In this document: in pieces, positions 32,071 to 64,000 of the stretch
Layout of the letters: every line of letters begins with the position of its first letter
Numbering within the stretch: the stretch's first letter is position 1
The notes under the pieces: model-generated
What the model was told of the DNA's origin: nothing
The model's database searches: none
Seen by the model: only the letters and a program-made list of their open reading frames with translations
Program-made: the position numbers and the translations under genes
NCBI GenBank assembly: GCA_041650935.1
Contig: JBAZKH010000008.1
Span: 8,825-72,824, forward strand
Direction of reading: 5' to 3'
Length of the DNA: 64,000 nt
Origin: Candidatus Omnitrophota bacterium
GTDB taxonomy: Bacteria; Omnitrophota; Gorgyraeia; 2-01-FULL-45-10

Positions 32071-32201
32071 AAGTCATTCCGCAATAAATTTTTCGCCGTC
32101 AGTCCGGCGCTTTTTCCGGCGGCCTGCAATTGATATGTTTAAGATTTTATGTCCCGCCTTTTATTTCCCGTTTCCCTGGCCAAATTTTTCGAAAACTCAG
32201 G

Positions 32202-32335
32202 AATATTATTTGGCGATGTGGCGAGCTTAGGCGTAAAAATTGCGAGGCAGCGTCCGAGCAATTTTTCTCGAGCGTAAATTTTACATGGTTAAAATTTACG
32301 CGTCCTAAGCTCACCACATCGCCAAATAATATTAG
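32202..32335. repeat. structured intergenic element with terminal inverted repeats, family 1, copy A (complete)
   Basis: It has terminal inverted repeats (GAATATTATTTGGCGATGTGGCGAGC and GCTCACCACATCGCCAAATAATATT) and two internal hairpins, AAAAATTGC[GAGGCAGCGTCCGA]GCAATTTTT and GCGTAAATTTTA[CATGGT]TAAAATTTACGC. Confidence 0.8.
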
Positions 32336-32357
32336 ACTGATACGAAAAATTATCTCC

Positions 32358-34301: not shown

Positions 34302-35307
34302 CCAGCTGCTCCTTCCCTGAAATAATATCCATTTCTATGACAAGCGTCATCACGGGATAGTCCCCAAAAGATAACGACATCCTGCGTAATTTGACTTCGT
34401 CCTTCTCGGTCGTAAGGATAAAATCGAACGATCTCTCATCGCATCTCTTCACGATAGGTCCGGTATCGGCCTGGCTGTAATTATAGTGATCGGCGAAGAC
34501 GATCTCTTCGGCGATGTCGGCGCCCAGGCGGCGGGCAGTATCGCTAAAGTAGCCCGGATCGCCTATACTCGACAAAAGAATTACGCGCTTACCCTTAAGA
34601 AAGTTTAAAGCGAGCTCCTTCCGCGCCTTCAGGTCGTAGAGACAGACGGGCTTGTGAAGCGCTTCGAGAAAGACGAGTGCGCCATTCAGTCTCTTTAACT
34701 CATCCTTCACCTGCACCAGCGCCGGACCCGGCTTATCGACTTTTGTAAAGACTATTACCGATGCGCGCTTTACGGCCTCCACAGGCTCCCTCAATATGCC
34801 CCGAGGGAAGAGCCGGCCGTTGCCGAACGGGTTGCGGGAATCGACCAGAATTATATCGAGATTGCGCTCGAGCTCCCAGTGCTGGAAACCGTCATCCAGC
34901 ACCGCGGTATCGCTGCCATAAAGCTTTATCGCCTTGTGCGCCGACTTCGTACGGTCTTCGCCGACAAGGATGGGCGTATCGGCAAGTTTGCGCCTGAGAA
35001 GAGTCTGTTCGTCCCAGCCGTAACCGCGGATAAGAACGCTCGCCTTCTTGCCAAGCTCCTCGTCGAGCAGCTTCACCAGCCGTATCACAAATGGTGTCTT
35101 GCCGGTACCGCCCAGAGTCAGGTTCCCGACGGATATTATCTTAAGCGGCACCCGGACGGATTTGAATATATGCGTCTTGTAAGCCAACCGCCGCAGTATA
35201 AGAGCAGCCCCGTACGCAAACGACAGGATGTAGAGAAAGAATTTTATAGGCGCATATATAGCGTCGTCACGCCTATCGGTCATCAATGAATATATGAATT
35301 CACGCAT
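34261..35307 (-). CDS. lpxK: tetraacyldisaccharide 4'-kinase
   Basis: It has the LpxK P-loop (ISVGNLTLGGTGKTP). The start is probably MREFIYSLM, 2 nt after the waaA stop. Confidence 0.85.
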   Translation of the reverse strand: MREFIYSLMTDRRDDAIYAPIKFFLYILSFAYGAALILRRLAYKTHIFKSVRVPLKIISVGNLTLGGTGKTPFVIRLVKLLDEELGKKASVLIRGYGWDEQTLLRRKLADTPILVGEDRTKSAHKAIKLYGSDTAVLDDGFQHWELERNLDIILVDSRNPFGNGRLFPRGILREPVEAVKRASVIVFTKVDKPGPALVQVKDELKRLNGALVFLEALHKPVCLYDLKARKELALNFLKGKRVILLSSIGDPGYFSDTARRLGADIAEEIVFADHYNYSQADTGPIVKRCDERSFDFILTTEKDEVKLRRMSLSFGDYPVMTLVIEMDIISGKEQLVDRLRSLYSRKGA

Positions 35308-36577
35308 TGAGGAATACCGCCATTTCGCCCAAGACCCGTCCCGTAGCGCCCATATTGTCGACGACAACCTGTTTGGCGGCTCTGCCCATCTCAAGGCGCC
35401 GCTTTTCATCCGTCAGCAGGTTGTAGAGGGCGGGTACCAGGTCATCACCGCTATCGACCTGCGCGGCCGCGGATGAGGCCAGAAAGGCCTCGGCTATATC
35501 CTTAAAATTGAACATATGCTGGCCGAATATTACGGGCTTCTCATGGACAGCAGGCTCTATCGGGTTCTGTCCGCCGTGTTTTATAAGGCTGCCTCCGACG
35601 AAGACTATGGTCGCTATAGAATAGAAGTCTCCCAGGCGGCCGATGGTGTCGAGAATGTAGATCCGTCGTTCGTCGTTCGTCGTTCGTCGTTCGTCGGAGC
35701 CGGATAACCGGACCGGCTGGAAGCCGAGTTTCTTTGCGGCCTCGGCGACCTCGCCCGCTCTTTCGATATGGCGGGGAGCGATCAGCAGTTTAAGCTTCGG
35801 GAAATCTTCGATTAAATCTTTATATGCAGCGATAACGGCGCATTCTTCGCCCGGATGCGTCGACCCTGCCACTATAAGCTCGTCTCCCGTAGCCATCCCC
35901 AGCTCTTTTTTTAATACGTCGCCGCTTATCCTGCCCGCCTTGACCCGGATATCGAATTTCATATTCCCGGCGACCTTTACTCTTTCGGGCCTGGCGCCAA
36001 GAGCTATTATCCTGTCCGCGTCCATCTTCGACTGCATGCAAAGAACGTTAATGTTCCGCAATATCTTCCTTAAGAACCGGCTTACCATCTCGTACTTCCC
36101 AAAAGACCTGTCCGATATCCTGCCGTTGATGAGTATGGCCGGTATGGCGCGGCGTTCTATCTCTTTTAAAAAATTAGGCCATATCTCAGTCTCGACCATG
36201 ATGTACATATTAGGCCTCACTATACCTATAACTTTCTTCACTATAAATGAAAAATCGAGCGGAAAATATATCACAACGGCATCATCCGCAAATAACTTCT
36301 TTGCCAGGTCGCCGCCCGTCTTAGTTATCGTCGAAAAAACTATCGGCCGCGAGGGGAACTTCTCGCGCATAAGCGGGATAAGGCTCCTGCATAACGCAAC
36401 CTCCCCTACGCTCACCGCCTGAATCCATATCGCGCCGCGCGCCTTCGCAAGCGCCGCGCGCTTCGCCCTGCCGTATACGCCGAACCGCTCGAGAAAATCC
36501 CTGTGCAGTTTGCCTTTGAATATCAGCGTCGGTAGATAGAAGATCGAGAATAACGCGAATCCTATGTCGTACAACAT
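35300..36577 (-). CDS. waaA: 3-deoxy-D-manno-octulosonic acid transferase
   Basis: The 425-aa protein is of the KdtA family (GT30). It contains the GTCGTTC heptamer repeat. Confidence 0.85.
   Translation of the reverse strand: MLYDIGFALFSIFYLPTLIFKGKLHRDFLERFGVYGRAKRAALAKARGAIWIQAVSVGEVALCRSLIPLMREKFPSRPIVFSTITKTGGDLAKKLFADDAVVIYFPLDFSFIVKKVIGIVRPNMYIMVETEIWPNFLKEIERRAIPAILINGRISDRSFGKYEMVSRFLRKILRNINVLCMQSKMDADRIIALGARPERVKVAGNMKFDIRVKAGRISGDVLKKELGMATGDELIVAGSTHPGEECAVIAAYKDLIEDFPKLKLLIAPRHIERAGEVAEAAKKLGFQPVRLSGSDERRTTNDERRIYILDTIGRLGDFYSIATIVFVGGSLIKHGGQNPIEPAVHEKPVIFGQHMFNFKDIAEAFLASSAAAQVDSGDDLVPALYNLLTDEKRRLEMGRAAKQVVVDNMGATGRVLGEMAVFLNA
35665..35696. repeat. heptanucleotide tandem repeat (GTCGTTC) of about 4.6 units inside the waaA coding sequence
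   Basis: The sequence is gtcgttc gtcgttc gtcgttc gtcgttc gtcg. In the reading frame it encodes DERRTTNDERR. Confidence 0.85.
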
Positions 36578-52909: not shown

Positions 52910-55900
52910 TTACGCAGCCCTTAGAAGAACTTCCTGTAAATGCTTAAGGCGGATTTGTTCGCCGGTATCGGCCGGTATGATAGGTTTGAGGATAAAGTTC
53001 AGCTTATTTATGAAGTCGACGGGGTTCTCTTTAAGCTCTCTTAATGGGATATACCTGCTTGCGCAACGCTGGGTCAAAAGACTATATAACCTGTAGAAAG
53101 ATTCGTTGTCATCGTTCAGGTAGGCCCTGCCCACCCCTATCAATCCTTCCAGATTGGTCAGGTTCCCCGCCTTAACCCTCTGACCATCAAGATTGATATA
53201 AATAACCCTGGCCTTTAATCTGTTAAGTTCTTTTATCTGGGCTTCGTTCAAACGCTCCAGGGGCAGGATCGTAACGGTGTTGTCGTCTATATTCTCACGG
53301 GCAAAAGATACAAGTTCGTCTATATTATCCTCGAAACTCACCCTGTCTTTTGTCAGCTTCGATATCTCCGTAAGGAATGGCTCCTGGCCGGGCGCGGCAT
53401 ACCCCGACCATGCTTTAATCGTGTAATCCTTTTCCGAGAGGCTCGCCTTTCCATATAGATAATCGACTATATGAAGCTTGATTGCTTCTCCGGCAAACGG
53501 GCATATCGCCGGAGGGATATTGCCCTGGCGCAATAACGGCTTATCATCTCCTTTGCCGGTCTTCAGTTTTACGCTGATCGCCACGTTAATTAAATTACGG
53601 GCATGTTCCCGCGTCTTATTATTAAGGTCTATCATCATATCGGAAAATTTATACTTTCCGTTTACATTCACAAATATACCGAGTTCCACCAAAGGCTTGA
53701 CCGCCTGATTATAAACCCTGGCCGCAAAATGTCGCTTGCCGCGGGGCTCGGTCATGCCGGGGCAGATATCGCTTTTAATGCTGAATCCTTCGCCCAGCGC
53801 CTTCTCAAGCAGCCCCCCGGGCCCGTTATCATATTTTATCATCATCAAAAACTCCGCCGGGTTACCCATTAGCCATCGGGAAACCGCGGGATCTTGAGTT
53901 GCGGAATCTTTCGCGGGATCTTGCCGGGTTATGTCATGTGGTCTTCCCGGAATCTTACCCGGCAAGGGCACGCTGCCCGGAATCTTACCCGGCAAAGGCA
54001 TGAGTTGCGGAATCTTGCCGGGTAAGGTCATGTGGTCTTCCCGGATCTTACCCGGCAAGGGCATGTCACCCGGCGCAGGCGCATCTGTGGACTTTTCACC
54101 AAAACGATCTAAGCGTATATACATTTCATCGATCAAACCCTCAGACTCTTTGATATCGACTGCGCCGGGATACATTGCCGCAAACTGCCGGTGAAATTTC
54201 TGAGCATCGCCGGTCGACGCCGGATGAGTGCGGTAATATTTCCCATCTCCGTTTTTCTTCATCTCTAAAATAGCCGCGCTCATAAGTGAATAGGCAACCC
54301 ACCGGTATTGTCTTCTTACATACATACCGTTCGACTCAAAATGATCGCCAATTAGTTTATAATCATAAAGCCCGACCGGCTCATCACCGTAATATCCGAT
54401 GACCGCAATATATTCTCCGATATCCCATTCCCGCTTTGTTTCGCTCGGCTTCTGCGCAGCCTCATGCGAAAGAGCGGCAAACCAGGCATTGCATTCTTCG
54501 ATCAACGAATCCAACCGCACGTCAGATTTTTGTTCGTCTGACAGGTTTTTATACAAGCGGAATGTTACTGATGGAAGAACCTTTTTAGAGGTATCCGAGA
54601 TTAGTCCATTCTGCTGCGCCTGCCCACCGCTCGCAAAATACGGTTCGCCGCCGGCTTGCTTGATTACAGACATCTGACGCTCATCTGCCAGCGTCTTGCC
54701 GGGTACCGGCATGAGTGTAGCTTCGGCATCCGCGGAATCTTTCGCGGAATCTTGCTGTGCGGAATCTTGCCGGGTAAGGTCATGTTGCCTTCCCGGAATC
54801 TTACCCGGCAAGGGCACGCTGCCCGGAATCTTGCCGGGTAAGGTCATGTTGTCTTCCCGGATCTTACCCGGCAAGGGCATGTTGGTATCCAGAGCGTCAC
54901 GTTTTGCGTCCCCATCTTCCTGCGGGCATTCTCCTGCAAGCGTTGCTAACCTTGCTTCAAAAGAAGATTCACTTAAGTTTTCCAATAGATAGGTCAGCTG
55001 TAAATTGTTCGGATGCCGCACAAGCTCTTTTCTGATTGCCGTTTCGACTTCGCGAGGAAATATCTTAGCGATCTCGACAAGGGCCGAATACGCACAACTG
55101 CTCGCATGATCTGGAGGATAACCTACGGCAAATATTAAATCATCTATCGCAGATCTGCCGAGAGCTATTATCTGCTTTTTCAGGCCTAATCTCTTATCTG
55201 CATCAGCATTATCCAACTTACTAAGTAGATCTTCCGTTTTCAGGGACGTGCCACTTTGGGACATTTCGCTATCCGCGTCGGCCGCACCTTCATCTAGCGC
55301 AACCTTTGTCCCATCGGATTGGACGGCACCCACTGCAGAAATCAGCTCCCATTTATACTCGTTTTTCCTTACTTCCTTAAAATCAAATGCCGCGGCAATT
55401 TTGCCGATCCATCCTCCATCCGAAGTATCTATAGCTTCCACAGATCGCAATTCCGGCAATGCTCTTAACCACGATAAAGCAGCAGCAAATAGCTTTGTGC
55501 CTACGCCCGCCTTTTGATAAGATCCCCGCACCGTCATTTCATCTATAAACCCTTCCCCCGCGTCATCTGTATGGCTTACTATCGCATATCCTATAACCTC
55601 ATTATTATTTCTCGCCACAAAAACTTTCCCCGGCCTCATCCACTTGCCATCCATTATCGACCTAAGGTAACGATTAGAAGATTCTGCGTAGGAAGGATGC
55701 ATATTACCGCCCGTAAGATAACCTTCTTCCCAAATTTTAGTAATTGCACCTATGTCGCCCGGATTTGCCGGTTCTATAATAGGCTCTGCGGGTCCTAGGG
55801 ACGGCTCTACCGGTCGCGCGCCTTGCTGTACGGCTGGGATGGCACCTTCTGGACCGTCCTTGTATTCCGCACCGCTCGCAAAATGTGGCTGGCCGCCGGC

Positions 55901-58900
55901 TTGCTTGATTACAGACATCTGACGCTCATCTGCCAGCGTCTTGCCGGGTACCGGCATGAGTGTAGCTTCGGCATCCGCGGAATCTTTCGCGGAATCTTGC
56001 TGTGCGGAATCTTGCCGGGTAAGGTCATGTTGCCTTCCCGGAATCTTACCCGGCAAGGGCATGTCACCCGGCGCGTCCATTTTTGACACGTCCCCTTTGT
56101 CAGCAACCCCGTCGTTTCTAACCTGGTTAGATTTGTCAGGTTGCGCGGGTTGCTGCGCCATCCTCTTATTTCTCTCGTTAAGATATTTCCACCGTTTAAG
56201 CATTTCGGTATCGACATGGGGGATAATTCCATTTATACTATACCGTATATCAGGATAGGGGCGGAATATGTCCGATTTCACTCTAAAAATATCAAACTTA
56301 GAGATGCTTTTCAAAACATCGGGCGAGGCATTTTTTATAAAAAATTTCAGGCTCATGCCCGAATCGCCATATAACATAAGCATTGCCAGGGACACAAATG
56401 TCATCCCATAACCATGCTGCCGGGGCAGATTTGGATATATTTGGTTAATTTTCACAACGCAGCCTTGTGGTGTTATTATTCTAAGCGGACAAGATAATCT
56501 TCCGCCGTCCCGGAATTTATTTTTATCAGAATTATGTACAAAAACGGCAAACTTTGTATTCTTATCATATTTAATCCTATCTCTTTCATCTTCCGATAGA
56601 GGCAAATCGTCATCATCTTCCCATCTCGCAAAACTTATATAATAACCCTGGGCAAAAAATTCTTCTATCCTTTGATTTAAGAGTGCTCTTTGTACTAGAT
56701 ACAAATCTGAAGGTGAAACTGTCCCTATTCCTGAGATTAAACCTGTCCCCCGGGCCGGATATAACAGCGGTTCCGAACTACGCGGAATGGTTTCGCCTTC
56801 GTCCTTCGGCGCTACGATGCTCTGCTTAGGCTGATTGGACCTGGCATCCGTACGATCACAACGGCTACCCACAATTCCCGAATAACGATATTCCTTAAGA
56901 GGCTCGGCGCTAAAGTATTTCTTCATAACATATGGAATAAAATGGAATCCGTCCGGCGCATACACCTCTTCGGTGGCAATCGCTTCTACACTCCATCCCG
57001 TATAATTCCGCTCGAGCGTATTTGCCAAATTCCCGAAAAATTTCGATACCAGACGGGATCCCTGCATACCTTCATCGATGGAAAGCCTGTCGATTTCCAT
57101 CATCTCCATGTCGGCATGCACCCTGAGAGCAAATACGAACTTAAGGCTTTCGTTAGCCGGGCGATAATGCCATATAAAATCTGCCCTGGGGTCAATGCGT
57201 TCGGCTTTGTCTATGACTATCTTATAGTCGATGACAGCGCCTCCCTCCGAAACGGTGGAAATGGCCGCTGCTACATACTCACCGGCAGGCACTTCGGCCA
57301 ATGCCTTCTTAAACTCCGGCAGACCCTGGCCTATCTTTTCCTGGATGCTGATGATTCGCACCTCTCTGCCATCGTTAAGATCGCTAAATCGTTTTAACAA
57401 CTCTGTTCCGGCAAGAAGCGATGTCAGGTTTATGCCTTCCTCCGGAGGCACGATGCTCTGCTTCCGCTGGTTAAACCTGGCACTCGACTGGCTCCGGCCA
57501 TGGCGGCCGCCTCCGAACTGCCTCTGCCACGGCTCCGGCGAAACATTCCGCGCACCCGCTATCTCTAAGTCCAGCGGTTCGATTTCCGGAGTAACGCCTC
57601 GTTGTACGGGCGGTGTCGCAAGAGTCTTCTGCGCAGGCGCATCGGCCGCATTTGTAGCAACATCCTTATTTCTAACCTGGTTAGATTCGCCGGGTTGCGC
57701 GGGTTGACCCGGAACATTGCCGGGCAAGGGCATGTCGGCATCCGCGGAATCTTGCCGGGTTATGTCATGCTGTCTTCCCGAAATCTTACCCGGCAAGGGC
57801 ATGTCACCCGGCGCGTCCCTTTTTGACACGTCCCCGCTAACTATGCGCTCTCCTTGCTCAAAAACGCAACCTGTTTCAGCGAATGATTTTAACAATGATC
57901 TGGTTATCTTGTTTTTTGTCTTTGGAATCAAATATTTCGGAATAGGCCTAGTCTCGGAGTATGTAAAATTGATAGCAACGGGTTCTATTCCAAAGTTAAA
58001 AAGCATGCCAACAAGTTCAACAACCCTGCGATTAATAGCCGGATCGGTAACCTCCCCCTCCTCAATAGGCGCGATAGCGTCATAGTCGATCGTAATTACC
58101 GCCGGCCCGGTTACCCTGCCCCTTAACGCTTTTATCGAATCAAAGATATTGGTTTTGCCGTAACATTCTATATCTTCCGGATTGGGGCGATATAACAGGG
58201 TCGTTCCGTCATCAACAGCCCTGACCCATATTCGGCGACCCGTGCTAAATCCGCCTTTCCAAAGCCTGCGCATCCAGTTACCGCAACTCAAAAGCTTAAC
58301 ACTCGGAGCATTTGCAGAATCCGGATGATGGTCAATATTTATTATAGTGGTATTTTTATCGGCAATGCCTTGTTTCTGCAGTTTCTTAACCCATCCAAAC
58401 ATCTCACGGTGGTTATTACACACCTTTACCGGTATAGTAACATCACCACGCCTTAACCACTTGACCTTCCCAAATTCTTTCACCTGCATAGCGGAATCTT
58501 TCGCGGAATCTTGCCGGGTTATGTCATGTGGTCTTTCCGGAATCTTGCCCGGCAAAGGCATGAGTTGCGGAATCTTGCCGGGTAAGGTCATGTTGTCTTC
58601 CCGGATCTTACCCGGCAAGGGCATGTCACCCGGCGCGTCCATTTTTGGCACGTCCCCATCACCCCTTTTATTCCCGCTGTTCTGCCTCTTCCATGCCTCG
58701 AGAGTATCTTTATCTACGGGAGGAAGCGCGCAATGGATATCATGCGTATTATCAAAATCCTCCCGGCTGTTGATCTCGATAGCATCCATTTCGGATAAAC
58801 TCTGGTACAATTTCGGCCTTGCGCAATAGATCGAAAATCTCTGTCTCACGTTCTCTTTGCCGGTAAGCAGGAATAACGCTACAGCCAGTGCGATTCGGCC

Positions 58901-61900
58901 GAATTGTTTGCCGTCCCGCAGCATTTGCGGAGAAAAACCTTTCAGCACTACGCTTCCGTCGCGCCTTACAAGCAGGTCAAAGCTTCCTTCCCAAGAGGTA
59001 TCCCTGAAATATTTCCCCGCTTCCGACTTTGACGATCTATAGTGCCTGACATATACCGGATTCCATACTCCGGGCTTCTGGATAGCGCCCCCTTCCGTTT
59101 CGATATAATAGCCGCTGCCTAAAAATGCCTCGACCTTGCTTCGCAGTGGTACAGGCGGAGGTGCCGCCGTTTTGCGCTCGTCAACAGGGGATAAGCTCAA
59201 AATACCTCTGCGGTTTTTTCCTTTCCGTCTATCTTTGACACTTCGCGCTTCAGATATAACCTTTACCCTATCGATCGCAAGATTGACAAAATCATTATGG
59301 TTAGCATAAAGGATAGGCCTGTTTCCATGAAAATCGACCATTAGCCACCTGGCGTTTTCGACATATTTCCCTGCCGGCCGCGGTTCCGGCAATTTCTGAT
59401 ACTCTTTCCTGGTAAGATGAATGTGCCTCACCACAGTTTCTATCCATGCATTGTCCGTATTCCTGGCGTCATCTACATACCCGCGGTATAATTCGACCGC
59501 CTTACCGGCATCGATCTTTATGCCGGTCTTCTTCTCGAGTTGTGCGGAGAGCGCCGCTACTATATCATTTTCAGCCGCCATCATTCCTCCGGGTATCGCC
59601 CATTGGCCGCAGTCGGCGCGTTTTATAGAGAGCATCTGCACCCTGCCGGGCTCGCCGTATGTCACGATCAGATCGACTGCAAAATTCGCACCCCATTTCC
59701 CGAGGACACCCCGGCCTCTAAGACCCGTCCTCCCGCGCGGATTGAGCGGACGTTTTTTATCATCCTCACGCACCGGCCCTTCATAGCTGGTAAGCACGCG
59801 CCCTATCTTAGTAATATCCTCAGGGTCGGCGTAACCGTCCGGATTACGGGTCACGTCATTCGCTAACACTTCCCTATCTACATAATATTCAGGGTTATAT
59901 TCCTTAAACGGGAAATCCCACGACACCGCATGCGAAGGGACAGGATAGCGGAAAGGATAGATAAAAGGGTTTTCACGCGCTTCCTTTAGCATTAATGCGG
60001 CAGACCTGCGTACATCTTTAAGGAATTCCCTGCGCCCGGTGTCGCGTTCCAACGTATCAAGCACGCCAAGTGTGCAATTTACCTCTCTCACAATATATGC
60101 AAGCGTTTCGTTCGCCAATCGCCTCATGTAACGCACCTGGTATTCCTGGTCCTCGGCGCTGACATGCCGGCATACGGGCATGCTGGATCCCGTAAGGTAT
60201 CTGCAAAGATTTTCGATAAACATGTACGGATCTCCGCGCCATAGTTCCATCAGGACCAGCTTCCGCTGGAGATGGACCGGCAGGACCCCTGTCTCGCTAT
60301 GTTGAACGGCAATTACGCACTCTTCGGTCCGCGAAAAACAGTCTTTAGCCTCCTGGGGACTATTATTTATATTGAACCAGATGCCGAGCAGTTCAAATAT
60401 TTCGGCAGTTTCTCTAAAAGCAGCCTGCGCATTAACATCTCCGGGCGGATAGGCGGACGGGTATCGCTTCCTTAATTCATCATAGCTTCTTTTAGTTTCC
60501 GCATATTTTTTGTTCAATATCATACGAAGCGCTCCGCTTCTTCCAAGCATGCCAACAACTTTTTTAGCCCGCCGGGGCGGGATAATCTCTTCTATCGCCT
60601 TAACCCTGTTCAGGTCGCCGGCATCAAGCCCCAGGTCTTTCTTCAGTGTCTCAAATAGGCGGGCGCCGGGAACTTCACCTCTATGCTCTAGCGAATACGG
60701 CTTGACGTAACTCCAGAGTTCCGATATCCTTTCTTCCCGCGTCTGTTTTCTATGCGCAGCTTCAGGTTTTTTCGTTACAGAGCCGGAAAGTATTGCGCTG
60801 GGGGCGTCGAGCGGCTTCACACTATGAGACGCGTCTTTTTTGGCCTCACTTTTCGCGGAATCCTGCTGCGCGGAATCTTTCGCGGAATCTTGCCGGGTTA
60901 TGTCATGTGGTCTTTCCGAGATATTACCAGGCAAGGGCACGGTGCCCGGAATCTTGCCGGGTAAGGTCATGTTGTCTTCCCGGATCTTACCCGGCAAGGG
61001 CATGTCACCCGGCGTGTCCATTTTTGGCACGTCCTTCTCATCGCTGCCATCACGTTTATAATGCACCACGAGCGGCGCCCAAAACGCGAACATGTTGTAA
61101 AAACCGTGGGTAATAATATTCGCTAGAAGGTGTATCCTGAAGGCGTATACGGCACTACCCGCGGCCGCCGCCAGCATGATTATATTGGGAGCGTCAAAAT
61201 AGATAAAAACAAGATACGGTATTCCCGCCAGGACAGCGGGCATCGATAACCATATAACACATATCCCCGTAAAACGGGTCAGCCAGTGATACCATCTCTC
61301 GTTCTTATGTTTTTTAAAAAGGCTCGGTAGATTGAAGATATTGGCCAATTCATCGCACTCGACAACCGCCGCGTACCAGCTAACCAGGAACCTCTTGGTT
61401 AGCTTCGAGCGATCTTGCCATCTCCAGGATGGGTAAGTCCTAAAGAATCGTACGACACGCCTTAGAGGAGATTGTAAAACCGGGCTGGCAGCGCCTTTCG
61501 CTTTAATCAAACCTTCTTGAGTTCTTCTTTCTTCGTCATACCTGCCGGGATGGAGAACTATCTCCGTAAGGTCCCGCATAAACTTCCGGCATTCCAGGCG
61601 GTTCGATACGCCATCCAATTTATAGTTATCGAAATGTTTCAATATTTCGGGCTCTGGGACACTGTCGCCTATGAGAGCCTCCAGGCCTTCTACAAAATGC
61701 TTCTCGAACGATTTCCTGCCGTCACCGCCATTACGCGACAAGATAAGATTACTTATAAGCTGGCAGCGTCTATATGGGTCGCTGCTGCTGCGCGCGATCT
61801 TAAGGTAAACATTCATAAGGCCTTCATTCTTTATATCGTAGTCTATATCCGAGATCCGTTCGTAGAGACTGAATGCCATCCTTAGGGTAAACGGGTCGTC

Positions 61901-64000
61901 CGAGGTATCCAGTATCCTCTCCAAGGCTGCGACATAATCTTTCCCGCAGCCGCCCAGTTTCGAATCGAAGGTATCGACGGGGTAAGGGTCTTCGCTTTTG
62001 ATACCTGCGCGCTCCAGCTTTCGCGCCAATACGTTCAACGCTACAAAAGCTTCTTCGTCATTGCCATCCAGCCCGGCAATAAGCATATCGGACGACATAC
62101 CGTACATTTTTCTTTGCCTATTATACAAAGAAAAATCAGCAATCTCTCCCGCGAACGAATTAAATAGAGTCGGCCCATAGCTAAACTCGGGCCTGTCGCG
62201 CCTATGGCTGTATATGAGCCTTAATAATAGCGACCTCCTTGCTCCTCTTATAGCAGAGCTAACCCGCTGCGCGAGATCTGCCTCCGGATCATTTTCCAGC
62301 TCCAGCATACTGAGAAATTCTATAACCGAATCCTCGTTCATATCCAACAGGTATTCTACGACTCTCATCTCCAGTATTCTCATATGGCGGCTTAACGACC
62401 AATCTTTGCCGCGCTGTTTGGAGTCTGGTATAGTGTAATATACGGCTTTAATGACATCTTCTTCGTATTTTTTCGGCAAATTGTCCAGGAAGAAAAGATC
62501 GCCTACGCGGTGTTTAACCATTTTCCTCCATCCTATCCCGCTAAAATTCCGTTCGATTTCGTCCAAGAAATAAAAATATTTGAATGTAGCCCGGGCAACA
62601 ACGCGGCTGTCGCAGTGGACCAAGAAATTATTTATCGGATCCCCTCGCGTATCCGGGCCGGCGGTTGAGGAAAGAGCGGCATGCCTGGTAACTTCGATAA
62701 GCGCTTCGAAGACCTGGTCCTCCAGACGAGCTTCGAGGTCTTCTTCAGTTTCGCTATTCGTGTCGCCGCCTGCCGGAACGCTACCGCCGGAGACGTCCCA
62801 GAGCCTTACAAACATCCTTGCGAGAGGACTCAACACCGCCGCGAGATACGTCGCGGCCGGGATACCGCTCCACGCATACCGGCCGAGCGGCGCGAATGCG
62901 CTGCCGCCCAGAAGCGGGCCGCCGGAAGAAAGATTAGCGCTACGTTTATCGCCCCGATTACGATAATCATAGTATTTCCTTATTACTTCTGCCGCCTTTT
63001 TATAAAGATCGGATGTTATCCCTGCTTCGAAGGTCTCCAGTCCGTGCATTAAATCGATAATGCTTTTCATGGCTTCACTGAACTTGTTGTAACGAAATGG
63101 TTTTAGGATAAACCAACCCCGCTGGACATCCAGTATATACGCCATAGCATCAAGCGCTTCATCAACTGCAATTACCTTTTCCGCCGCTTTTAAAAAACGT
63201 TCGATAGCGCCGTTTTTGAAATCGATGCCGGAAGATAATATCGCTTTGCTGATCGCTTTATCAATGTTGGAAAATTCTTTCGTAAGCGCACTACCCAGGC
63301 CAGTCTTCACCTGATGAGATTCAACTATAACTATGAATGAGCATAATATTACATCCCAAATTATGCCGAAGGGAAAAACCCAGGCCAGGTGCGCTATGTA
63401 AACAATTAAAACGAGCGACAGGATCGATAGCGACATATTAAACAATGCGGCTGAAAAAGATAACCATATTTGCGCACGCACCCATCTTTTGTTTAAATAA
63501 GCCGGTTCATAGTCTTCAAGACCCGGCTCATCGCCTTCAAGACCTGTAGGACCTGCCGCGATATTGACGTCACCCGTGTCTTCGCTGTCGAAGATCGAGC
63601 CGGATTCGATATAGGCCTTATGAAGCTCTTCCCAATTCAGGAGGTATTTATACTTTTTGAAAAGATGCGTCAAGTCGCGGGAATTTGTGTGGTAATCGTA
63701 CGCAAGTTCTTTGGCTTCGGGGTTACCTTTGACCCAGACATCTTTGAAGACCTTGGGATCCGGAGGAATAACCGAGCTCTGGAGAAGTTCCAGCCGCTTG
63801 GCTTCCCACTTACCTATCTCGTCCTTTTCGTGGGAAATTATTTCTTTCGAGGCCTTATAGTCCGCAGCTGCATAACGGCCGGCATCGTCCAGCTTATCCT
63901 GGTCATAATAAAATTTTTCATCGATAAATATGACGGGCAAATCGTTCCATTTCCACAGGCCAACTTTCGCAAACTGCCCCCTATTCGCGAACATGCCCGG
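52910..64000 (-). CDS. giant modular protein of at least 3694 aa: an N-terminal multi-TM region, then a NUDT9-like degenerate Nudix domain, an arginase/deacetylase-fold domain, four to five GNAT-like domains, a HEAT-like region and a C-terminal domain of unknown family, joined by six near-identical PLPGKIP linkers
   Basis: A single ORF runs from 63994, or from beyond the window, to 52910. See the findings for the individual domains and linkers. Confidence 0.8.
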   Translation of the reverse strand, partial: PGMFANRGQFAKVGLWKWNDLPVIFIDEKFYYDQDKLDDAGRYAAADYKASKEIISHEKDEIGKWEAKRLELLQSSVIPPDPKVFKDVWVKGNPEAKELAYDYHTNSRDLTHLFKKYKYLLNWEELHKAYIESGSIFDSEDTGDVNIAAGPTGLEGDEPGLEDYEPAYLNKRWVRAQIWLSFSAALFNMSLSILSLVLIVYIAHLAWVFPFGIIWDVILCSFIVIVESHQVKTGLGSALTKEFSNIDKAISKAILSSGIDFKNGAIERFLKAAEKVIAVDEALDAMAYILDVQRGWFILKPFRYNKFSEAMKSIIDLMHGLETFEAGITSDLYKKAAEVIRKYYDYRNRGDKRSANLSSGGPLLGGSAFAPLGRYAWSGIPAATYLAAVLSPLARMFVRLWDVSGGSVPAGGDTNSETEEDLEARLEDQVFEALIEVTRHAALSSTAGPDTRGDPINNFLVHCDSRVVARATFKYFYFLDEIERNFSGIGWRKMVKHRVGDLFFLDNLPKKYEEDVIKAVYYTIPDSKQRGKDWSLSRHMRILEMRVVEYLLDMNEDSVIEFLSMLELENDPEADLAQRVSSAIRGARRSLLLRLIYSHRRDRPEFSYGPTLFNSFAGEIADFSLYNRQRKMYGMSSDMLIAGLDGNDEEAFVALNVLARKLERAGIKSEDPYPVDTFDSKLGGCGKDYVAALERILDTSDDPFTLRMAFSLYERISDIDYDIKNEGLMNVYLKIARSSSDPYRRCQLISNLILSRNGGDGRKSFEKHFVEGLEALIGDSVPEPEILKHFDNYKLDGVSNRLECRKFMRDLTEIVLHPGRYDEERRTQEGLIKAKGAASPVLQSPLRRVVRFFRTYPSWRWQDRSKLTKRFLVSWYAAVVECDELANIFNLPSLFKKHKNERWYHWLTRFTGICVIWLSMPAVLAGIPYLVFIYFDAPNIIMLAAAAGSAVYAFRIHLLANIITHGFYNMFAFWAPLVVHYKRDGSDEKDVPKMDTPGDMPLPGKIREDNMTLPGKIPGTVPLPGNISERPHDITRQDSAKDSAQQDSAKSEAKKDASHSVKPLDAPSAILSGSVTKKPEAAHRKQTREERISELWSYVKPYSLEHRGEVPGARLFETLKKDLGLDAGDLNRVKAIEEIIPPRRAKKVVGMLGRSGALRMILNKKYAETKRSYDELRKRYPSAYPPGDVNAQAAFRETAEIFELLGIWFNINNSPQEAKDCFSRTEECVIAVQHSETGVLPVHLQRKLVLMELWRGDPYMFIENLCRYLTGSSMPVCRHVSAEDQEYQVRYMRRLANETLAYIVREVNCTLGVLDTLERDTGRREFLKDVRRSAALMLKEARENPFIYPFRYPVPSHAVSWDFPFKEYNPEYYVDREVLANDVTRNPDGYADPEDITKIGRVLTSYEGPVREDDKKRPLNPRGRTGLRGRGVLGKWGANFAVDLIVTYGEPGRVQMLSIKRADCGQWAIPGGMMAAENDIVAALSAQLEKKTGIKIDAGKAVELYRGYVDDARNTDNAWIETVVRHIHLTRKEYQKLPEPRPAGKYVENARWLMVDFHGNRPILYANHNDFVNLAIDRVKVISEARSVKDRRKGKNRRGILSLSPVDERKTAAPPPVPLRSKVEAFLGSGYYIETEGGAIQKPGVWNPVYVRHYRSSKSEAGKYFRDTSWEGSFDLLVRRDGSVVLKGFSPQMLRDGKQFGRIALAVALFLLTGKENVRQRFSIYCARPKLYQSLSEMDAIEINSREDFDNTHDIHCALPPVDKDTLEAWKRQNSGNKRGDGDVPKMDAPGDMPLPGKIREDNMTLPGKIPQLMPLPGKIPERPHDITRQDSAKDSAMQVKEFGKVKWLRRGDVTIPVKVCNNHREMFGWVKKLQKQGIADKNTTIINIDHHPDSANAPSVKLLSCGNWMRRLWKGGFSTGRRIWVRAVDDGTTLLYRPNPEDIECYGKTNIFDSIKALRGRVTGPAVITIDYDAIAPIEEGEVTDPAINRRVVELVGMLFNFGIEPVAINFTYSETRPIPKYLIPKTKNKITRSLLKSFAETGCVFEQGERIVSGDVSKRDAPGDMPLPGKISGRQHDITRQDSADADMPLPGNVPGQPAQPGESNQVRNKDVATNAADAPAQKTLATPPVQRGVTPEIEPLDLEIAGARNVSPEPWQRQFGGGRHGRSQSSARFNQRKQSIVPPEEGINLTSLLAGTELLKRFSDLNDGREVRIISIQEKIGQGLPEFKKALAEVPAGEYVAAAISTVSEGGAVIDYKIVIDKAERIDPRADFIWHYRPANESLKFVFALRVHADMEMMEIDRLSIDEGMQGSRLVSKFFGNLANTLERNYTGWSVEAIATEEVYAPDGFHFIPYVMKKYFSAEPLKEYRYSGIVGSRCDRTDARSNQPKQSIVAPKDEGETIPRSSEPLLYPARGTGLISGIGTVSPSDLYLVQRALLNQRIEEFFAQGYYISFARWEDDDDLPLSEDERDRIKYDKNTKFAVFVHNSDKNKFRDGGRLSCPLRIITPQGCVVKINQIYPNLPRQHGYGMTFVSLAMLMLYGDSGMSLKFFIKNASPDVLKSISKFDIFRVKSDIFRPYPDIRYSINGIIPHVDTEMLKRWKYLNERNKRMAQQPAQPDKSNQVRNDGVADKGDVSKMDAPGDMPLPGKIPGRQHDLTRQDSAQQDSAKDSADAEATLMPVPGKTLADERQMSVIKQAGGQPHFASGAEYKDGPEGAIPAVQQGARPVEPSLGPAEPIIEPANPGDIGAITKIWEEGYLTGGNMHPSYAESSNRYLRSIMDGKWMRPGKVFVARNNNEVIGYAIVSHTDDAGEGFIDEMTVRGSYQKAGVGTKLFAAALSWLRALPELRSVEAIDTSDGGWIGKIAAAFDFKEVRKNEYKWELISAVGAVQSDGTKVALDEGAADADSEMSQSGTSLKTEDLLSKLDNADADKRLGLKKQIIALGRSAIDDLIFAVGYPPDHASSCAYSALVEIAKIFPREVETAIRKELVRHPNNLQLTYLLENLSESSFEARLATLAGECPQEDGDAKRDALDTNMPLPGKIREDNMTLPGKIPGSVPLPGKIPGRQHDLTRQDSAQQDSAKDSADAEATLMPVPGKTLADERQMSVIKQAGGEPYFASGGQAQQNGLISDTSKKVLPSVTFRLYKNLSDEQKSDVRLDSLIEECNAWFAALSHEAAQKPSETKREWDIGEYIAVIGYYGDEPVGLYDYKLIGDHFESNGMYVRRQYRWVAYSLMSAAILEMKKNGDGKYYRTHPASTGDAQKFHRQFAAMYPGAVDIKESEGLIDEMYIRLDRFGEKSTDAPAPGDMPLPGKIREDHMTLPGKIPQLMPLPGKIPGSVPLPGKIPGRPHDITRQDPAKDSATQDPAVSRWLMGNPAEFLMMIKYDNGPGGLLEKALGEGFSIKSDICPGMTEPRGKRHFAARVYNQAVKPLVELGIFVNVNGKYKFSDMMIDLNNKTREHARNLINVAISVKLKTGKGDDKPLLRQGNIPPAICPFAGEAIKLHIVDYLYGKASLSEKDYTIKAWSGYAAPGQEPFLTEISKLTKDRVSFEDNIDELVSFARENIDDNTVTILPLERLNEAQIKELNRLKARVIYINLDGQRVKAGNLTNLEGLIGVGRAYLNDDNESFYRLYSLLTQRCASRYIPLRELKENPVDFINKLNFILKPIIPADTGEQIRLKHLQEVLLRAA

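What the first reader, a model, noticed from the sequence alone, without database searches (positions are those of the whole stretch)
59400..59750. NUDT9-like Nudix domain with a degenerate catalytic box inside the giant protein
The segment [30 protein letters not shown]...SIKRADCGQWAIPGGMMAAENDIVAALSAQLEKKTG...YRGYVDDARNTDNAWIETV matches the ADP-ribose pyrophosphatase NUDT9 ([76 protein letters not shown]) block for block. The Nudix box REFGEE is replaced by AQLEKK. The TRPM2 NUDT9-H domain shows the same kind of degeneration and binds ADP-ribose without hydrolysing it. I therefore expect an ADP-ribose or O-acetyl-ADP-ribose binding module rather than a hydrolase.
Basis: partly seen in the sequence, partly recalled or inferred. 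Interest (0 to 1): 0.7.

Follow-up and report, generated by a model that had tools for sequence, protein, structure and literature searches.

The report
Catalytically dead NUDT9-like domain, Omnitrophota protein
A 3,817-residue membrane-anchored protein of an uncultured Omnitrophota bacterium contains a well-preserved copy of the ADP-ribose-cleaving enzyme NUDT9 in which every catalytic residue has been replaced while the ligand-holding residues remain, so it most likely binds an ADP-ribose-type nucleotide without cutting it.

Summary
Residues 1346-1585 of the ORF at 52910-63994(-) form a complete NUDT9-type domain with cap and Nudix core. Support: phmmer to human NUDT9 gives E=2e-28; the AF2 model has pLDDT 94.6; Foldseek's top hit is NUDT9 (E=9e-21), followed by TRPM2 NUDT9-H.

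All 120 closest homologues are standalone bacterial ADP-ribose pyrophosphatases of 212-435 aa, and all keep RExxEE. This domain has AQLEKK. It has also lost the upstream Glu (to Asn), Asp218 (to Ala) and the catalytic base Asp305 (to Tyr). There is no RE..EE anywhere in the protein.

Of 70 family-conserved positions, 57 are kept. These include the ribose and phosphate contacts (NUDT9 D172, R204, D271, R273). All 8 catalytic positions are replaced (Fisher p=1e-7).

The host protein is NCBI MFA5144223.1, annotated only as "GNAT family N-acetyltransferase". It is a string of modules joined by six near-identical linkers.

Similar dead NUDT9 domains, often with E234K, recur in other long bacterial proteins, including NAD-salvage mega-fusions.

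Loss of hydrolysis is well supported. ADP-ribose binding is inferred, not shown. I rate this a new variant of a known kind (TRPM2 NUDT9-H, NrtR, DBC1) and of moderate interest.

The parts
52910..63994 (-). Host gene. It encodes 3,694 aa within the window and continues past the window end. The full protein is 3,817 aa and equals NCBI MFA5144223.1, 'GNAT family N-acetyltransferase', Candidatus Omnitrophota MAG.
   Evidence: ORF list and translation. P0121 is 100% identical over all 3,694 aa and adds 123 N-terminal aa with signal peptide MKRAIAAILAAVFLFNDIAFA|GD. The phylum is also indicated by the N-terminal relative L001.
59240..59959 (-). Complete NUDT9-like domain, aa 1346-1585. Cap subdomain is about aa 1346-1428 (59711-59959). 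Nudix core is about aa 1429-1585 (59240-59710).
   Evidence: phmmer to NUDT9 E=2.3e-28, covering chain residues 19-276. AF2 pLDDT 94.6, pTM 0.90. Foldseek top hit NUDT9 1qvj, E=9.2e-21, TM 0.73. It is the only such domain in the window.
59519..59587 (-). Degenerate Nudix box, aa 1470-1492: G-MMAAE-N-DIVAALS-AQLEKK-TGI. The family consensus is G-MVDxG-E-x7-RE[LF]xEE-TGV.
   Evidence: All 120 nearest homologues keep RExxEE. In NUDT9 numbering the changes are D218A, G220E, E221N, R229A, E230Q, E233K, E234K. No RE..EE occurs anywhere in the protein.
59360..59374 (-). Loop that carries the catalytic base in active relatives. The consensus AGDDA is AGKYV here (aa 1541-1545), so D304 becomes K and D305 becomes Y.
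   Evidence: Column analysis. The equivalent residue D1460 is the catalytic base in the srTRPM2 chanzyme and is replaced by Ser in inactive human TRPM2 (PMC11479946).
59438..59479 (-). Retained ligand-contact motif YVDDARNTDNAWIE, aa 1506-1519 (equivalents of NUDT9 D270, D271, R273, N274, D276, W279, E281).
   Evidence: The query matches the consensus at every one of these columns, each of which holds one residue in 91-100% of the 232 intact-box homologues. D1426/R1428 of srTRPM2 (= D271/R273) bind the terminal ribose and beta-phosphate.
59660..59692 (-). [11 protein letters not shown], aa 1435-1445, with D1441 (= NUDT9 D172, a terminal-ribose contact). R1459 (= R204, a beta-phosphate contact) lies at 59618-59620.
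   Evidence: Both columns hold the same residue in every intact-box homologue and are kept in the query. The mapping runs through srTRPM2 D1330 and R1360.
59960..60634 (-). Upstream helical domain of module B, aa ~1121-1345. It has no known family and recurs with a dead NUDT9 domain in two other Omnitrophota proteins.
   Evidence: The domain on its own matches only P0175 (E=3e-12) and P0257 (E=2e-10) among 270 collected proteins. There is no significant Pfam hit. There is no hhalign relationship to TCAD9/APH kinase-like domains.
58670..59137 (-). Downstream domain of module B, aa ~1620-1775. It is probably GNAT-fold and is paralogous to aa ~2420-2610.
   Evidence: Internal blastp E=5e-8. The AF2 model is of low confidence (pLDDT 67). 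Its Foldseek hits are weak (E ~1e-3, TM 0.4-0.5), and nearly all are GNAT-fold acyl-CoA acyltransferases or GNAT-like domains. The word search found no homologues.
60713..61039 (-). Linker 1, aa 986-1094, which bounds module B on its N-terminal side. It holds (D/N)M(P/T)LPGKI repeats followed by RPHDITRQDSAKDSA.
   Evidence: Motif mapping. DNA-level repeat families.
58484..58669 (-). Linker 2, aa 1776-1837, which bounds module B on its C-terminal side.
   Evidence: The stretch 58483-58666 is 89% identical in DNA to 60862-61045.

Best explanation
The segment is a full NUDT9-type domain (cap plus Nudix core). It descends from a bacterial ADP-ribose pyrophosphatase and has been turned into a non-catalytic nucleotide-binding module.

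Shown:
- It has the fold and family of NUDT9.
- Every residue needed for Mg2+ binding and water activation is replaced.
- The residues that grip the terminal ribose 5-phosphate and the beta-phosphate of ADP-ribose are kept.

Inferred:
- It binds ADP-ribose or a close derivative (2'-deoxy-ADPR, O-acetyl-ADPR) without hydrolysing it.
- The two new lysines (K1488, K1489) and Q1485 on the Nudix helix replace the metal cluster in neutralising the diphosphate.
- Ligand-driven cap/core closure is passed to the neighbouring domains of the same module, namely an upstream helical domain and a downstream GNAT-like domain.

On this reading the domain acts as a metabolite sensor or reader inside a membrane-anchored multi-module protein. 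That protein contains one Pfam-level GNAT, further GNAT-like domains and a weak arginase/deacetylase-like module.
For: Homology and fold:
- Sequence matches to NUDT9 and TRPM2.
- 246 homologues, the best at 53% identity.
- AF2 pLDDT 94.6.
- Foldseek ranks NUDT9 first, then TRPM2.

Selective loss of catalysis:
- All 120 nearest homologues keep RExxEE; the query has AQLEKK.
- The query keeps 57 of 70 family-conserved columns. All 8 catalytic columns are changed against 5 of the other 62 (Fisher p=1.4e-7).
- The catalytic base changes from D to Y (its role from PMC11479946).
- No RE..EE exists anywhere in the protein.

Precedent that box loss leaves binding intact:
- NUDT9 E230I/F231L is inactive but binds ADPR with a Kd of 16 nM, and NUDT9 changes conformation when it binds ligand (PMC7612441).
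- The TRPM2 NUDT9-H Nudix box does not support catalysis, yet the domain binds ADPR (PMC4974056).

Recurrence:
- 28 of 272 other NUDT9-like domains have lost E230 or E234, and 17 of them carry K at position 234.
- These dead domains keep D172 (26/28), R204 (27/28), D271 (28/28) and R273 (28/28).
- They sit in long multidomain proteins, including NAD-salvage fusions, which links the class to NAD/ADPR metabolism.
- Two other Omnitrophota proteins share the unit of helical domain plus dead NUDT9 at only 33-34% identity. This argues for long-term maintenance.
Against: - No binding or activity data exist, and I could not dock a ligand or inspect the model coordinates.
- D218 (to A), R177 (to Y) and W110 (to Y) also differ from the family consensus, so the pocket is not identical to that of NUDT9.
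- In human TRPM2 the ligand pose is reversed relative to the active enzymes (PMC11479946), so conserved residues do not guarantee the same pose.
- No close ortholog was found (best 50-53% identity), so purifying selection on this particular copy could not be measured.
- With catalytic columns excluded, the nearest sequences are intact enzymes. The inactivation may therefore be lineage-specific and of unknown age.
- Membrane topology is ambiguous. If the module is extracytoplasmic, a free-nucleotide sensor is less plausible.
- No NAD-consuming enzyme lies nearby in the window.
Confidence: 0.55

Rival explanations
1. The domain is a structural or protein-interaction relic. It lost catalysis and no longer binds any small molecule, and it is kept only as a folded spacer or docking surface in the modular protein.
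For: - No orthologue data demonstrate selection on the pocket.
- Several non-box conserved residues have changed (W110Y, G145K, R177Y, D218A).
- Many domains of Omnitrophota long proteins are reported to be highly divergent (bioRxiv 10.1101/2023.11.21.568195).
Against: - 57 of the 62 non-catalytic conserved positions are retained although overall identity to any relative is only about 50%.
- Those retained positions include every mapped ribose and phosphate contact.
- The same contacts are kept in 26-28 of 28 other dead NUDT9-like domains.
- A relic with no pocket constraint should lose these positions at the background rate.
Confidence: 0.2
2. The domain binds a different ADP-containing ligand, not ADPR. 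Candidates are CoA or acetyl-CoA (given the GNAT neighbours), NAD(P), an ADP-sugar such as ADP-heptose or ADP-glucose, or a cyclic or glycosylated ADPR signalling isomer.
For: - The domain directly downstream looks GNAT-fold, and the protein carries at least one Pfam-level GNAT.
- D218 and the whole metal site are remodelled, with two new Lys and new acidic residues E1475 and E1487. This could retune specificity.
- LPS core and heptosyltransferase genes lie in the same window.
Against: - The residues specific for the terminal ribose 5-phosphate (D172, D271 and R273 equivalents) are unchanged.
- No CoA-type Nudix signature was detected by Pfam or NCBIfam.
Confidence: 0.15
3. The domain is still an enzyme with non-canonical chemistry. 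It would be a hydrolase or transferase that uses the re-positioned acidic residues (E1475, D1477, E1487) or the lysines in place of the classical Nudix glutamates.
For: - New acidic residues lie one position away from the lost ones within the box, in GGMMAAENDI and AQLEKK.
- The Nudix clan includes non-hydrolase chemistries (PMC5389931).
Against: - E230 alone is worth about 10^3-fold in NUDT9 and NUDT5, and the base is worth about 10^2-fold (PMC11479946).
- Here E221, R229, E230, E233, E234 and D305 are all gone.
- Two lysines in the metal site should repel Mg2+.
Confidence: 0.07

Closest known systems
Human NUDT9 and the bacterial standalone NUDT9-type ADP-ribose pyrophosphatases (PF00293 + PF25969; e.g. 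P0003, P0005)
   Same: - The two-subdomain architecture (cap plus Nudix core) is the same.
- Identity is 49-53% to the bacterial enzymes and about 30% to NUDT9.
- 57 of 70 family-conserved positions are shared, including the D172, R204, D271, R273 and Y321 equivalents.
   Different: - All metal-binding and catalytic residues are replaced (E221N, R229A, E230Q, E233K, E234K, D305Y).
- The domain is embedded at residue ~1470 (full-length numbering) of a 3,817-aa membrane protein rather than being a ~270-aa soluble enzyme.
NUDT9-H domain of vertebrate TRPM2
   Same: It is a NUDT9 homologue whose Nudix box and catalytic base degenerated, turning an ADPR hydrolase into an ADPR-binding regulatory domain fused to another machine (PMC4974056, PMC11479946).
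   Different: - It is an independent bacterial event, with no TRPM channel and no MHR1/2 domain.
- Degeneration is more complete: TRPM2 has RILRQE and keeps R229 and E234, whereas here the box is AQLEKK.
- TRPM2 also replaced D172 by Tyr, which reverses the ligand pose. Here D172 is kept, so an enzyme-like pose is more likely.
NrtR (Nudix-related transcriptional regulator)
   Same: It is a bacterial, catalytically inactive ADPRase-like Nudix domain that uses ADPR as an effector. Foldseek finds it (3gz8, E=3.6e-9; PMC6800001).
   Different: - It belongs to a different Nudix subfamily: there is no NUDT9 cap and sequence identity is about 16%.
- NrtR is fused to a winged-helix DNA-binding domain, and none was detected here.
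DBC1/CCAR2-type noncatalytic Nudix domain (PF14443)
   Same: It is a dead Nudix domain predicted to bind NAD metabolites and to regulate a (de)acetylation enzyme (PMC5389931). This is conceptually close to a dead Nudix placed among GNAT and deacetylase-like modules.
   Different: It is eukaryotic and not of NUDT9 type. No sequence match was seen here, and the regulatory role is itself only a prediction.
Other bacterial dead NUDT9-like domains found here (P0130/P0144/P0183/P0265: isochorismatase-kinase-like-Nudix; P0137/P0145/P0165/P0122/P0124: radical SAM-Nudix-HAD within NAD-salvage fusions; P0175/P0257: Omnitrophota helical domain plus Nudix)
   Same: - The box is lost, with E234K recurring.
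- The D172, R204, D271 and R273 equivalents are retained.
- They sit in long multidomain proteins.
- P0175 and P0257 also share the upstream helical domain.
   Different: - Identity to these is only 33-44%, whereas intact standalone enzymes are closer at 49-53%.
- The domain partners differ: here they are GNAT-like modules, not NAD-salvage enzymes.
- I found no publication describing this class.

Membership tests
NUDT9 family (homology) | Significant sequence similarity over both the cap and the Nudix core | tested here: met
   phmmer to 1q33 gives E=2.3e-28 over chain residues 19-276. There are 246 homologues down to E=1e-3.
NUDT9 family (homology) | NUDT9 two-subdomain fold | tested here: met
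   AF2 pLDDT 94.6. Foldseek places 1qvj first, E=9.2e-21, TM 0.73.
NUDT9-type ADP-ribose pyrophosphatase (enzyme) | Nudix box Gx5Ex7REUxEExGU | tested here: not met
   The sequence is G-MMAAE-N-DIVAALS-AQLEKK-TGI. The changes are E221N, R229A, E230Q, E233K and E234K, whereas all 120 nearest homologues keep RExxEE. No RE..EE occurs in the protein.
NUDT9-type ADP-ribose pyrophosphatase (enzyme) | Catalytic base Asp in the loop after the Nudix helix (NUDT9 D305, srTRPM2 D1460) | tested here: not met
   The residue is Tyr1544, and the neighbouring D304 is Lys. Its role is taken from PMC11479946.
NUDT9-type ADP-ribose pyrophosphatase (enzyme) | ADPR hydrolysis to AMP plus ribose 5-phosphate | not testable with these tools
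   This needs a biochemical assay.
NUDT9-H-type ADPR-binding pseudoenzyme (as in vertebrate TRPM2) | NUDT9 homologue with an inactivated Nudix box and a lost catalytic base | tested here: met
NUDT9-H-type ADPR-binding pseudoenzyme (as in vertebrate TRPM2) | Conserved ribose and phosphate contact residues (NUDT9 D172, R204, D271, R273) | tested here: met
   D1441, R1459, D1509 and R1511 are present. Human TRPM2 itself has Tyr at the D172 position.
NUDT9-H-type ADPR-binding pseudoenzyme (as in vertebrate TRPM2) | Fusion to a TRPM channel (MHR domains, six-TM pore) | tested here: not met
   The TRPM2 matches cover only the NUDT9-H part. Pfam finds no TRP or MHR domains.
NUDT9-H-type ADPR-binding pseudoenzyme (as in vertebrate TRPM2) | Demonstrated ADPR binding | not testable with these tools
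   This needs ITC, DSF or a structure.
NrtR | Inactive ADPRase-like Nudix domain fused to a C-terminal winged-helix DNA-binding domain | tested here: not met
   Pfam and NCBIfam find no HTH or wHTH domain. Fold similarity to 3gz8 covers only the generic Nudix core.
Omnitrophota 'giant gene' proteins (Archaeovorin type, West-Roberts et al. 2023 preprint) | Gene longer than 90 kb, with glycosyltransferase, methyltransferase, glycosyl hydrolase, peptidase and NUDIX domains and SecA-like domains | tested here: not met
   The gene is 11.5 kb (3,817 aa). Pfam finds only GNAT, NUDIX and a weak UPF0489/arginase hit. It shares the phylum, the N-terminal signal peptide, the TM anchors and the presence of NUDIX plus GNAT.

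The most novel reading that the evidence does not exclude
Bacteria have repeatedly converted NUDT9-type ADP-ribose hydrolases into metal-free ADPR or O-acetyl-ADPR sensors. The typical route swaps the last Nudix glutamate for lysine. This parallels the vertebrate TRPM2 NUDT9-H conversion but is independent of it.

In this Omnitrophota protein, such a sensor would allosterically couple NAD-derived nucleotide levels to a chain of acyltransferase and deacetylase-like modules. In other lineages the same kind of sensor is wired into single-polypeptide NAD-salvage pathways and kinase-like proteins.
Probability: 0.3. Interest if true: 0.65.

Novelty: new variant of a known kind. Interest (0 to 1): 0.42.

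Why it matters
Dead Nudix domains reused as ligand sensors are known from a handful of cases: vertebrate TRPM2, NrtR and, by prediction, DBC1. A bacterial NUDT9-type example would be a clean, soluble, independently evolved model for how an ADPR hydrolase becomes an ADPR receptor. It shows complete and selective replacement of the catalytic set, and it belongs to a wider group in which Glu234-to-Lys recurs. It could also serve as a natural scaffold for ADPR biosensors.

The finding also gives a first functional handle on one module of a long Omnitrophota protein that is currently annotated only as "GNAT family N-acetyltransferase". It points as well to an apparently undescribed class of dead NUDT9 domains embedded in NAD-salvage mega-fusions.

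The practical value is limited until binding is measured.

Tried and rejected
- **Plus strand:** the three plus-strand frames of 59400-59750 hold nothing relevant; the feature is on the minus strand.
- **Whole-protein homologue search:** it timed out.
- **Exact look-ups:** neither the window's IlvC nor P0121 is on record, so no contig context could be fetched.
- **Word-index search with the Nudix domain:** it did not return the protein's own database entry. That entry surfaced only in the exhaustive search, where the "92% identity" figure is an artefact; the true identity is 100%.
- **Genome-collection scan with the N-terminal module:** it found only two short Omnitrophota contig ends (L001, L002), neither reaching the Nudix region.
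- **Metagenome scan with the Nudix module:** no orthologue above 50% identity. The apparent 66% hit, L067, is a short segment of an intron-containing eukaryotic gene. No dN/dS analysis was therefore possible.
- **PADLOC defence models:** no hit, so a known anti-phage system is not supported.
- **Upstream helical domain as the C-lobe of a TCAD9/APH kinase-like domain:** rejected, hhalign probability 0.1%.
- **Downstream domain Bc:** the homologue search found nothing. Its AF2 model is of low confidence (pLDDT 67), so the GNAT-fold assignment is tentative.
- **Common origin of all dead NUDT9 domains:** not supported. With catalytic columns excluded, the query's nearest neighbours are intact enzymes. 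The NJ tree is only a rough guide.
- **ADPR source in the window:** I looked for a nearby sirtuin, ART, TIR or macro domain and found only housekeeping genes.
Full report
**Observation**

The quoted peptides are not on the plus strand. They lie on the minus strand, inside one very long ORF at 52910-63994(-), which encodes 3,694 aa within the window. The three blocks map to aa 1416-1445, 1456-1491 and 1503-1521, which is 59432-59749. AQLEKK is aa 1484-1489.

The ORF has no upstream stop before the window ends. The exhaustive protein search returned P0121, which is NCBI MFA5144223.1, [quoted passage not shown], 3,817 aa. It is 100% identical over all 3,694 residues and adds 123 N-terminal residues that begin with a Sec-type signal peptide. 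An N-terminal relative on an Omnitrophota MAG contig agrees. The neighbouring genes are ordinary chromosomal genes: ilvD, ilvB, ilvC, leuA, aroE, pilD, aroC, aroK, dprA, topA, LPS genes, purA and serA.

**Is it a NUDT9 homologue?**

Yes, and a complete one.
- phmmer of aa 1339-1598 against PDB sequences gives human NUDT9 at E=2.3e-28. The alignment runs from the cap (chain residue 19) to the C-terminal helix (residue 276). Nematostella TRPM2 follows at 2.8e-25, human TRPM2 at 2e-20 and the choanoflagellate TRPM2 chanzyme at 7e-18.
- A search of 5.8 billion proteins found 246 homologues. All 120 listed are 212-435 aa proteins, many named ADP-ribose pyrophosphatase, and the best is 53% identical.
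- An AlphaFold2 model built on 69 sequences has pLDDT 94.6 and pTM 0.90.
- Foldseek against the PDB ranks NUDT9 first (1qvj, E=9e-21, TM 0.73). The TRPM2 NUDT9-H domains come next, and other Nudix proteins, including NrtR, appear only much further down.
- The Pfam NUDIX model scores only 21.7 bits against a threshold of 21.1, because the signature box is missing.
It is the only NUDT9-like domain in the window.

**Is the box really degenerate, and selectively so?**

All 120 nearest homologues read GGMVDxGE-x7-RE[LF]xEExG. The window reads GGMMAAEN-DIVAALS-AQLEKKTG.

I aligned 275 NUDT9-like domains to a family HMM and numbered the columns through the NUDT9 residues of the alignment. That numbering reproduces the published E230/F231.
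- 70 columns are at least 85% conserved among the 232 intact-box domains.
- The query keeps 57 of these 70.
- Ten of the 13 losses cluster in the Nudix box or in the catalytic-base loop: V217M, D218A, G220E, E221N, R229A, E230Q, E233K, E234K, D305Y and A306V.
- Taking 8 catalytic-site columns against the other 62, the split is 8/8 changed versus 5/62 changed (Fisher p=1.4e-7).
- The retained positions are D172, R204, D206, M216, D270, D271, R273, N274, D276, W279, E281, Y321 and H324 (NUDT9 numbering). In the window protein these include D1441, R1459, M1471, D1509, R1511 and Y1563.
- No RE..EE or E..EE motif exists anywhere in the 3,694 residues.

**What the residues mean**

In the TRPM2 chanzyme structures (PMC11479946):
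- E1386 and E1390 (= NUDT9 E230 and E234) hold the three Mg2+ ions.
- D1460 (= D305) deprotonates the attacking water.
- D1330, D1426 and R1428 (= D172, D271, R273) bind the terminal ribose.
- R1360 and R1428 (= R204, R273) bind the beta-phosphate.
- F1372 (= M216) stacks on the adenine.

Human TRPM2 is inactive because E1386 became Ile and D1460 became Ser. It also changed D1330 to Tyr, which flips the ligand.

In NUDT9 itself, E230I/F231L abolishes hydrolysis but leaves a Kd of 16 nM for ADPR, and ligand binding causes large conformational changes (PMC7612441). Only the NUDT9-type box supports catalysis (PMC4974056).

The window domain has lost more of the catalytic set than TRPM2 has. It keeps all mapped ribose and phosphate contacts, including the Asp that TRPM2 lost. 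Canonical hydrolysis is therefore very unlikely. Retained, enzyme-like binding of an ADPR-type ligand is the most economical inference, with K1488 and K1489 plausibly replacing the metals at the diphosphate. That last step is inference only.

**Context in the protein**

The protein is a chain of modules separated by six near-identical linkers. Each linker has (D/N)M(P/T)LPGKI repeats followed by RxHD(I/L)TRQDSAKDSA. Some linker copies are 89-96% identical at the DNA level.

- The N-terminal ~1,100 residues carry the signal peptide and two clusters of TM helices. Topology is ambiguous.
- Module B (aa ~1095-1775) has three parts.
  - A helical domain of unknown family.
  - The dead NUDT9 domain.
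  - A domain paralogous to aa ~2420-2610. Its low-confidence model (pLDDT 67) hits nearly only GNAT-fold proteins, and only weakly.
- Elsewhere there is a Pfam-level GNAT at aa 2785-2853.
- There is also a weak UPF0489/arginase-like module at aa ~1856-1990.
- PADLOC finds nothing.

**Relatives with the same trick**

In the exhaustive search (2,201 hits, 150 listed), 28 of 272 other NUDT9-like domains have lost E230 or E234.
- 17 of them carry Lys at position 234.
- They keep D172 (26/28), R204 (27/28), D271 (28/28) and R273 (28/28).
- They occur in longer proteins, with a median of 883 aa against 351 aa.

Their domain partners fall into three groups.
- Isochorismatase plus an APH/TCAD9 kinase-like domain (P0130, P0144, P0183, P0265).
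- A radical SAM-Nudix-HAD cassette (P0137, P0145, P0165).
- The same cassette inside 2,927-aa and 4,008-aa fusions of NAD-salvage and NAD-synthesis enzymes: NAPRTase, isochorismatase, NadE and, in the 4,008-aa fusion only, an NMNAT-like (cytidylyltransferase-family) domain (P0122, P0124).

This association with NAD metabolism supports an ADPR-type or NAD-metabolite ligand for the class.

Two Omnitrophota proteins, P0175 and P0257, share both the upstream helical domain (E=3e-12 and 2e-10) and a dead NUDT9 domain. Like the query, both have lost E221, R229, E230, E234 and D305. This suggests an old, maintained unit of helical domain plus dead NUDT9. However, their Nudix parts are only 33-34% identical to the query, while intact standalone enzymes are 49-53% identical and are its nearest neighbours when catalytic columns are excluded. 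Whether there was one inactivation or several therefore remains open.

**Comparison with what is known**

NUDIX and GNAT domains in Omnitrophota giant or long proteins have been noted at the Pfam level (bioRxiv 10.1101/2023.11.21.568195 and 10.64898/2026.06.07.730766). Neither preprint mentions NUDT9, ADP-ribose or a degenerate box. This 11.5-kb gene is also far below the 90-kb "giant gene" definition used there.

Non-catalytic Nudix domains are an established category: TRPM2, NrtR and DBC1 (PMC5389931; PMC6800001). I found no description of bacterial dead NUDT9-type domains, although my literature search was limited.

By descent the domain belongs to the NUDT9 family. By function it fails the enzyme's defining features and should not be annotated as an ADP-ribose pyrophosphatase.

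**Limits**

- There are no orthologues of this copy, so selection could not be measured.
- I had no access to model coordinates and no docking.
- Membrane topology is unresolved.
- The ligand is unproven.

**Verdict**

The finding is a new variant of a known kind and of moderate interest.

Noticed in passing
window 52910-63994 (-); linkers at about 60713-61039, 58484-58669, 57578-57829, 55853-56119, 54623-54904, 53882-54094: The long protein is built from about seven modules separated by six near-identical Pro/Gly/Lys-rich linkers: (D/N)M(P/T)LPGKI repeats followed by RxHD(I/L)TRQDSAKDSA. Some linker copies are 89-96% identical at the DNA level over 184-202 nt. This implies recent duplication or gene conversion. 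The linkers could be flexible tethers or processing sites.
   Followed up: partly
window 63994-64000 and beyond the window end: The ORF runs off the window. The full-length protein (MFA5144223.1, 3,817 aa) has 123 more N-terminal residues with a Sec signal peptide (AFA|GD). It has TM helices at about 299-349 and 1031-1082, with a possible short one at 1086-1100. The side of the membrane on which the C-terminal 2,700 residues lie could not be decided.
   Followed up: partly
window 57830-58483 (-), aa 1838-2055: This module gives weak hits to UPF0489 (E=0.002) and Arginase (E=0.002) and has an IINIDHHPD motif. It may be an arginase/deacetylase-fold hydrolase sitting among GNAT-like modules.
   Followed up: no
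window 58670-59137 (-) and 56120-56737 (-): Two paralogous domains of about 170 aa (25% identity, E=5e-8) have no detectable homologues by word search. A low-confidence AF2 model resembles GNAT-fold proteins, including the acetyl-CoA-binding regulatory domain of M. tuberculosis ICL2.
   Followed up: partly
P0122 (2,927 aa) and P0124 (4,008 aa), proteins from the exhaustive search: These are single polypeptides that fuse most of an NAD salvage and synthesis pathway: NAPRTase, isochorismatase/nicotinamidase-like, CN-hydrolase plus NAD synthase and, in P0124 only, a cytidylyltransferase-family (NMNAT-like) domain. Each also carries a radical SAM - dead NUDT9 - HAD cassette and an additional NUDT9-like domain with an intact RExxEE box. 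In P0124 the upstream Gx5E glutamate of that domain is Gln.
   Followed up: partly
P0130, P0144, P0183, P0265, P0220 (454-886 aa): A recurrent architecture of isochorismatase + APH/TCAD9 kinase-like domain + NUDT9-like domain, with E230 changed to A/S/V and E234 changed to K while the ribose and phosphate contacts are kept. It appears to be an uncharacterised family of probable ADPR-sensing kinase-like proteins. One is annotated 'phosphotransferase [Deltaproteobacteria bacterium]'.
   Followed up: partly
P0123, P0135, P0139, P0167 (proteins from the exhaustive search): These carry tandem pairs of NUDT9-like domains in one polypeptide, in which at least one copy has a degenerate box. This may be a pseudo-dimer arrangement.
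   Followed up: no
window 13679-17713 (-): A 1,344-aa secreted-type protein with an S8 subtilase domain followed by beta-propeller/FG-GAP and Ig-like domains. An LPS core and lipid A gene cluster (LpxK, KdtA, lipid A acyltransferase, heptosyltransferase/GT4 fusion) lies at about 29983-36577.
   Followed up: no
tool behaviour: The word-index homologue search did not return the query's own database entry (P0121), although that entry is in the collection. The exhaustive search reported it as 92% identical when it is 100% identical. Very long proteins may be under-reported by the word-index tool, so the absence of long relatives is not evidence that none exist.
   Followed up: yes
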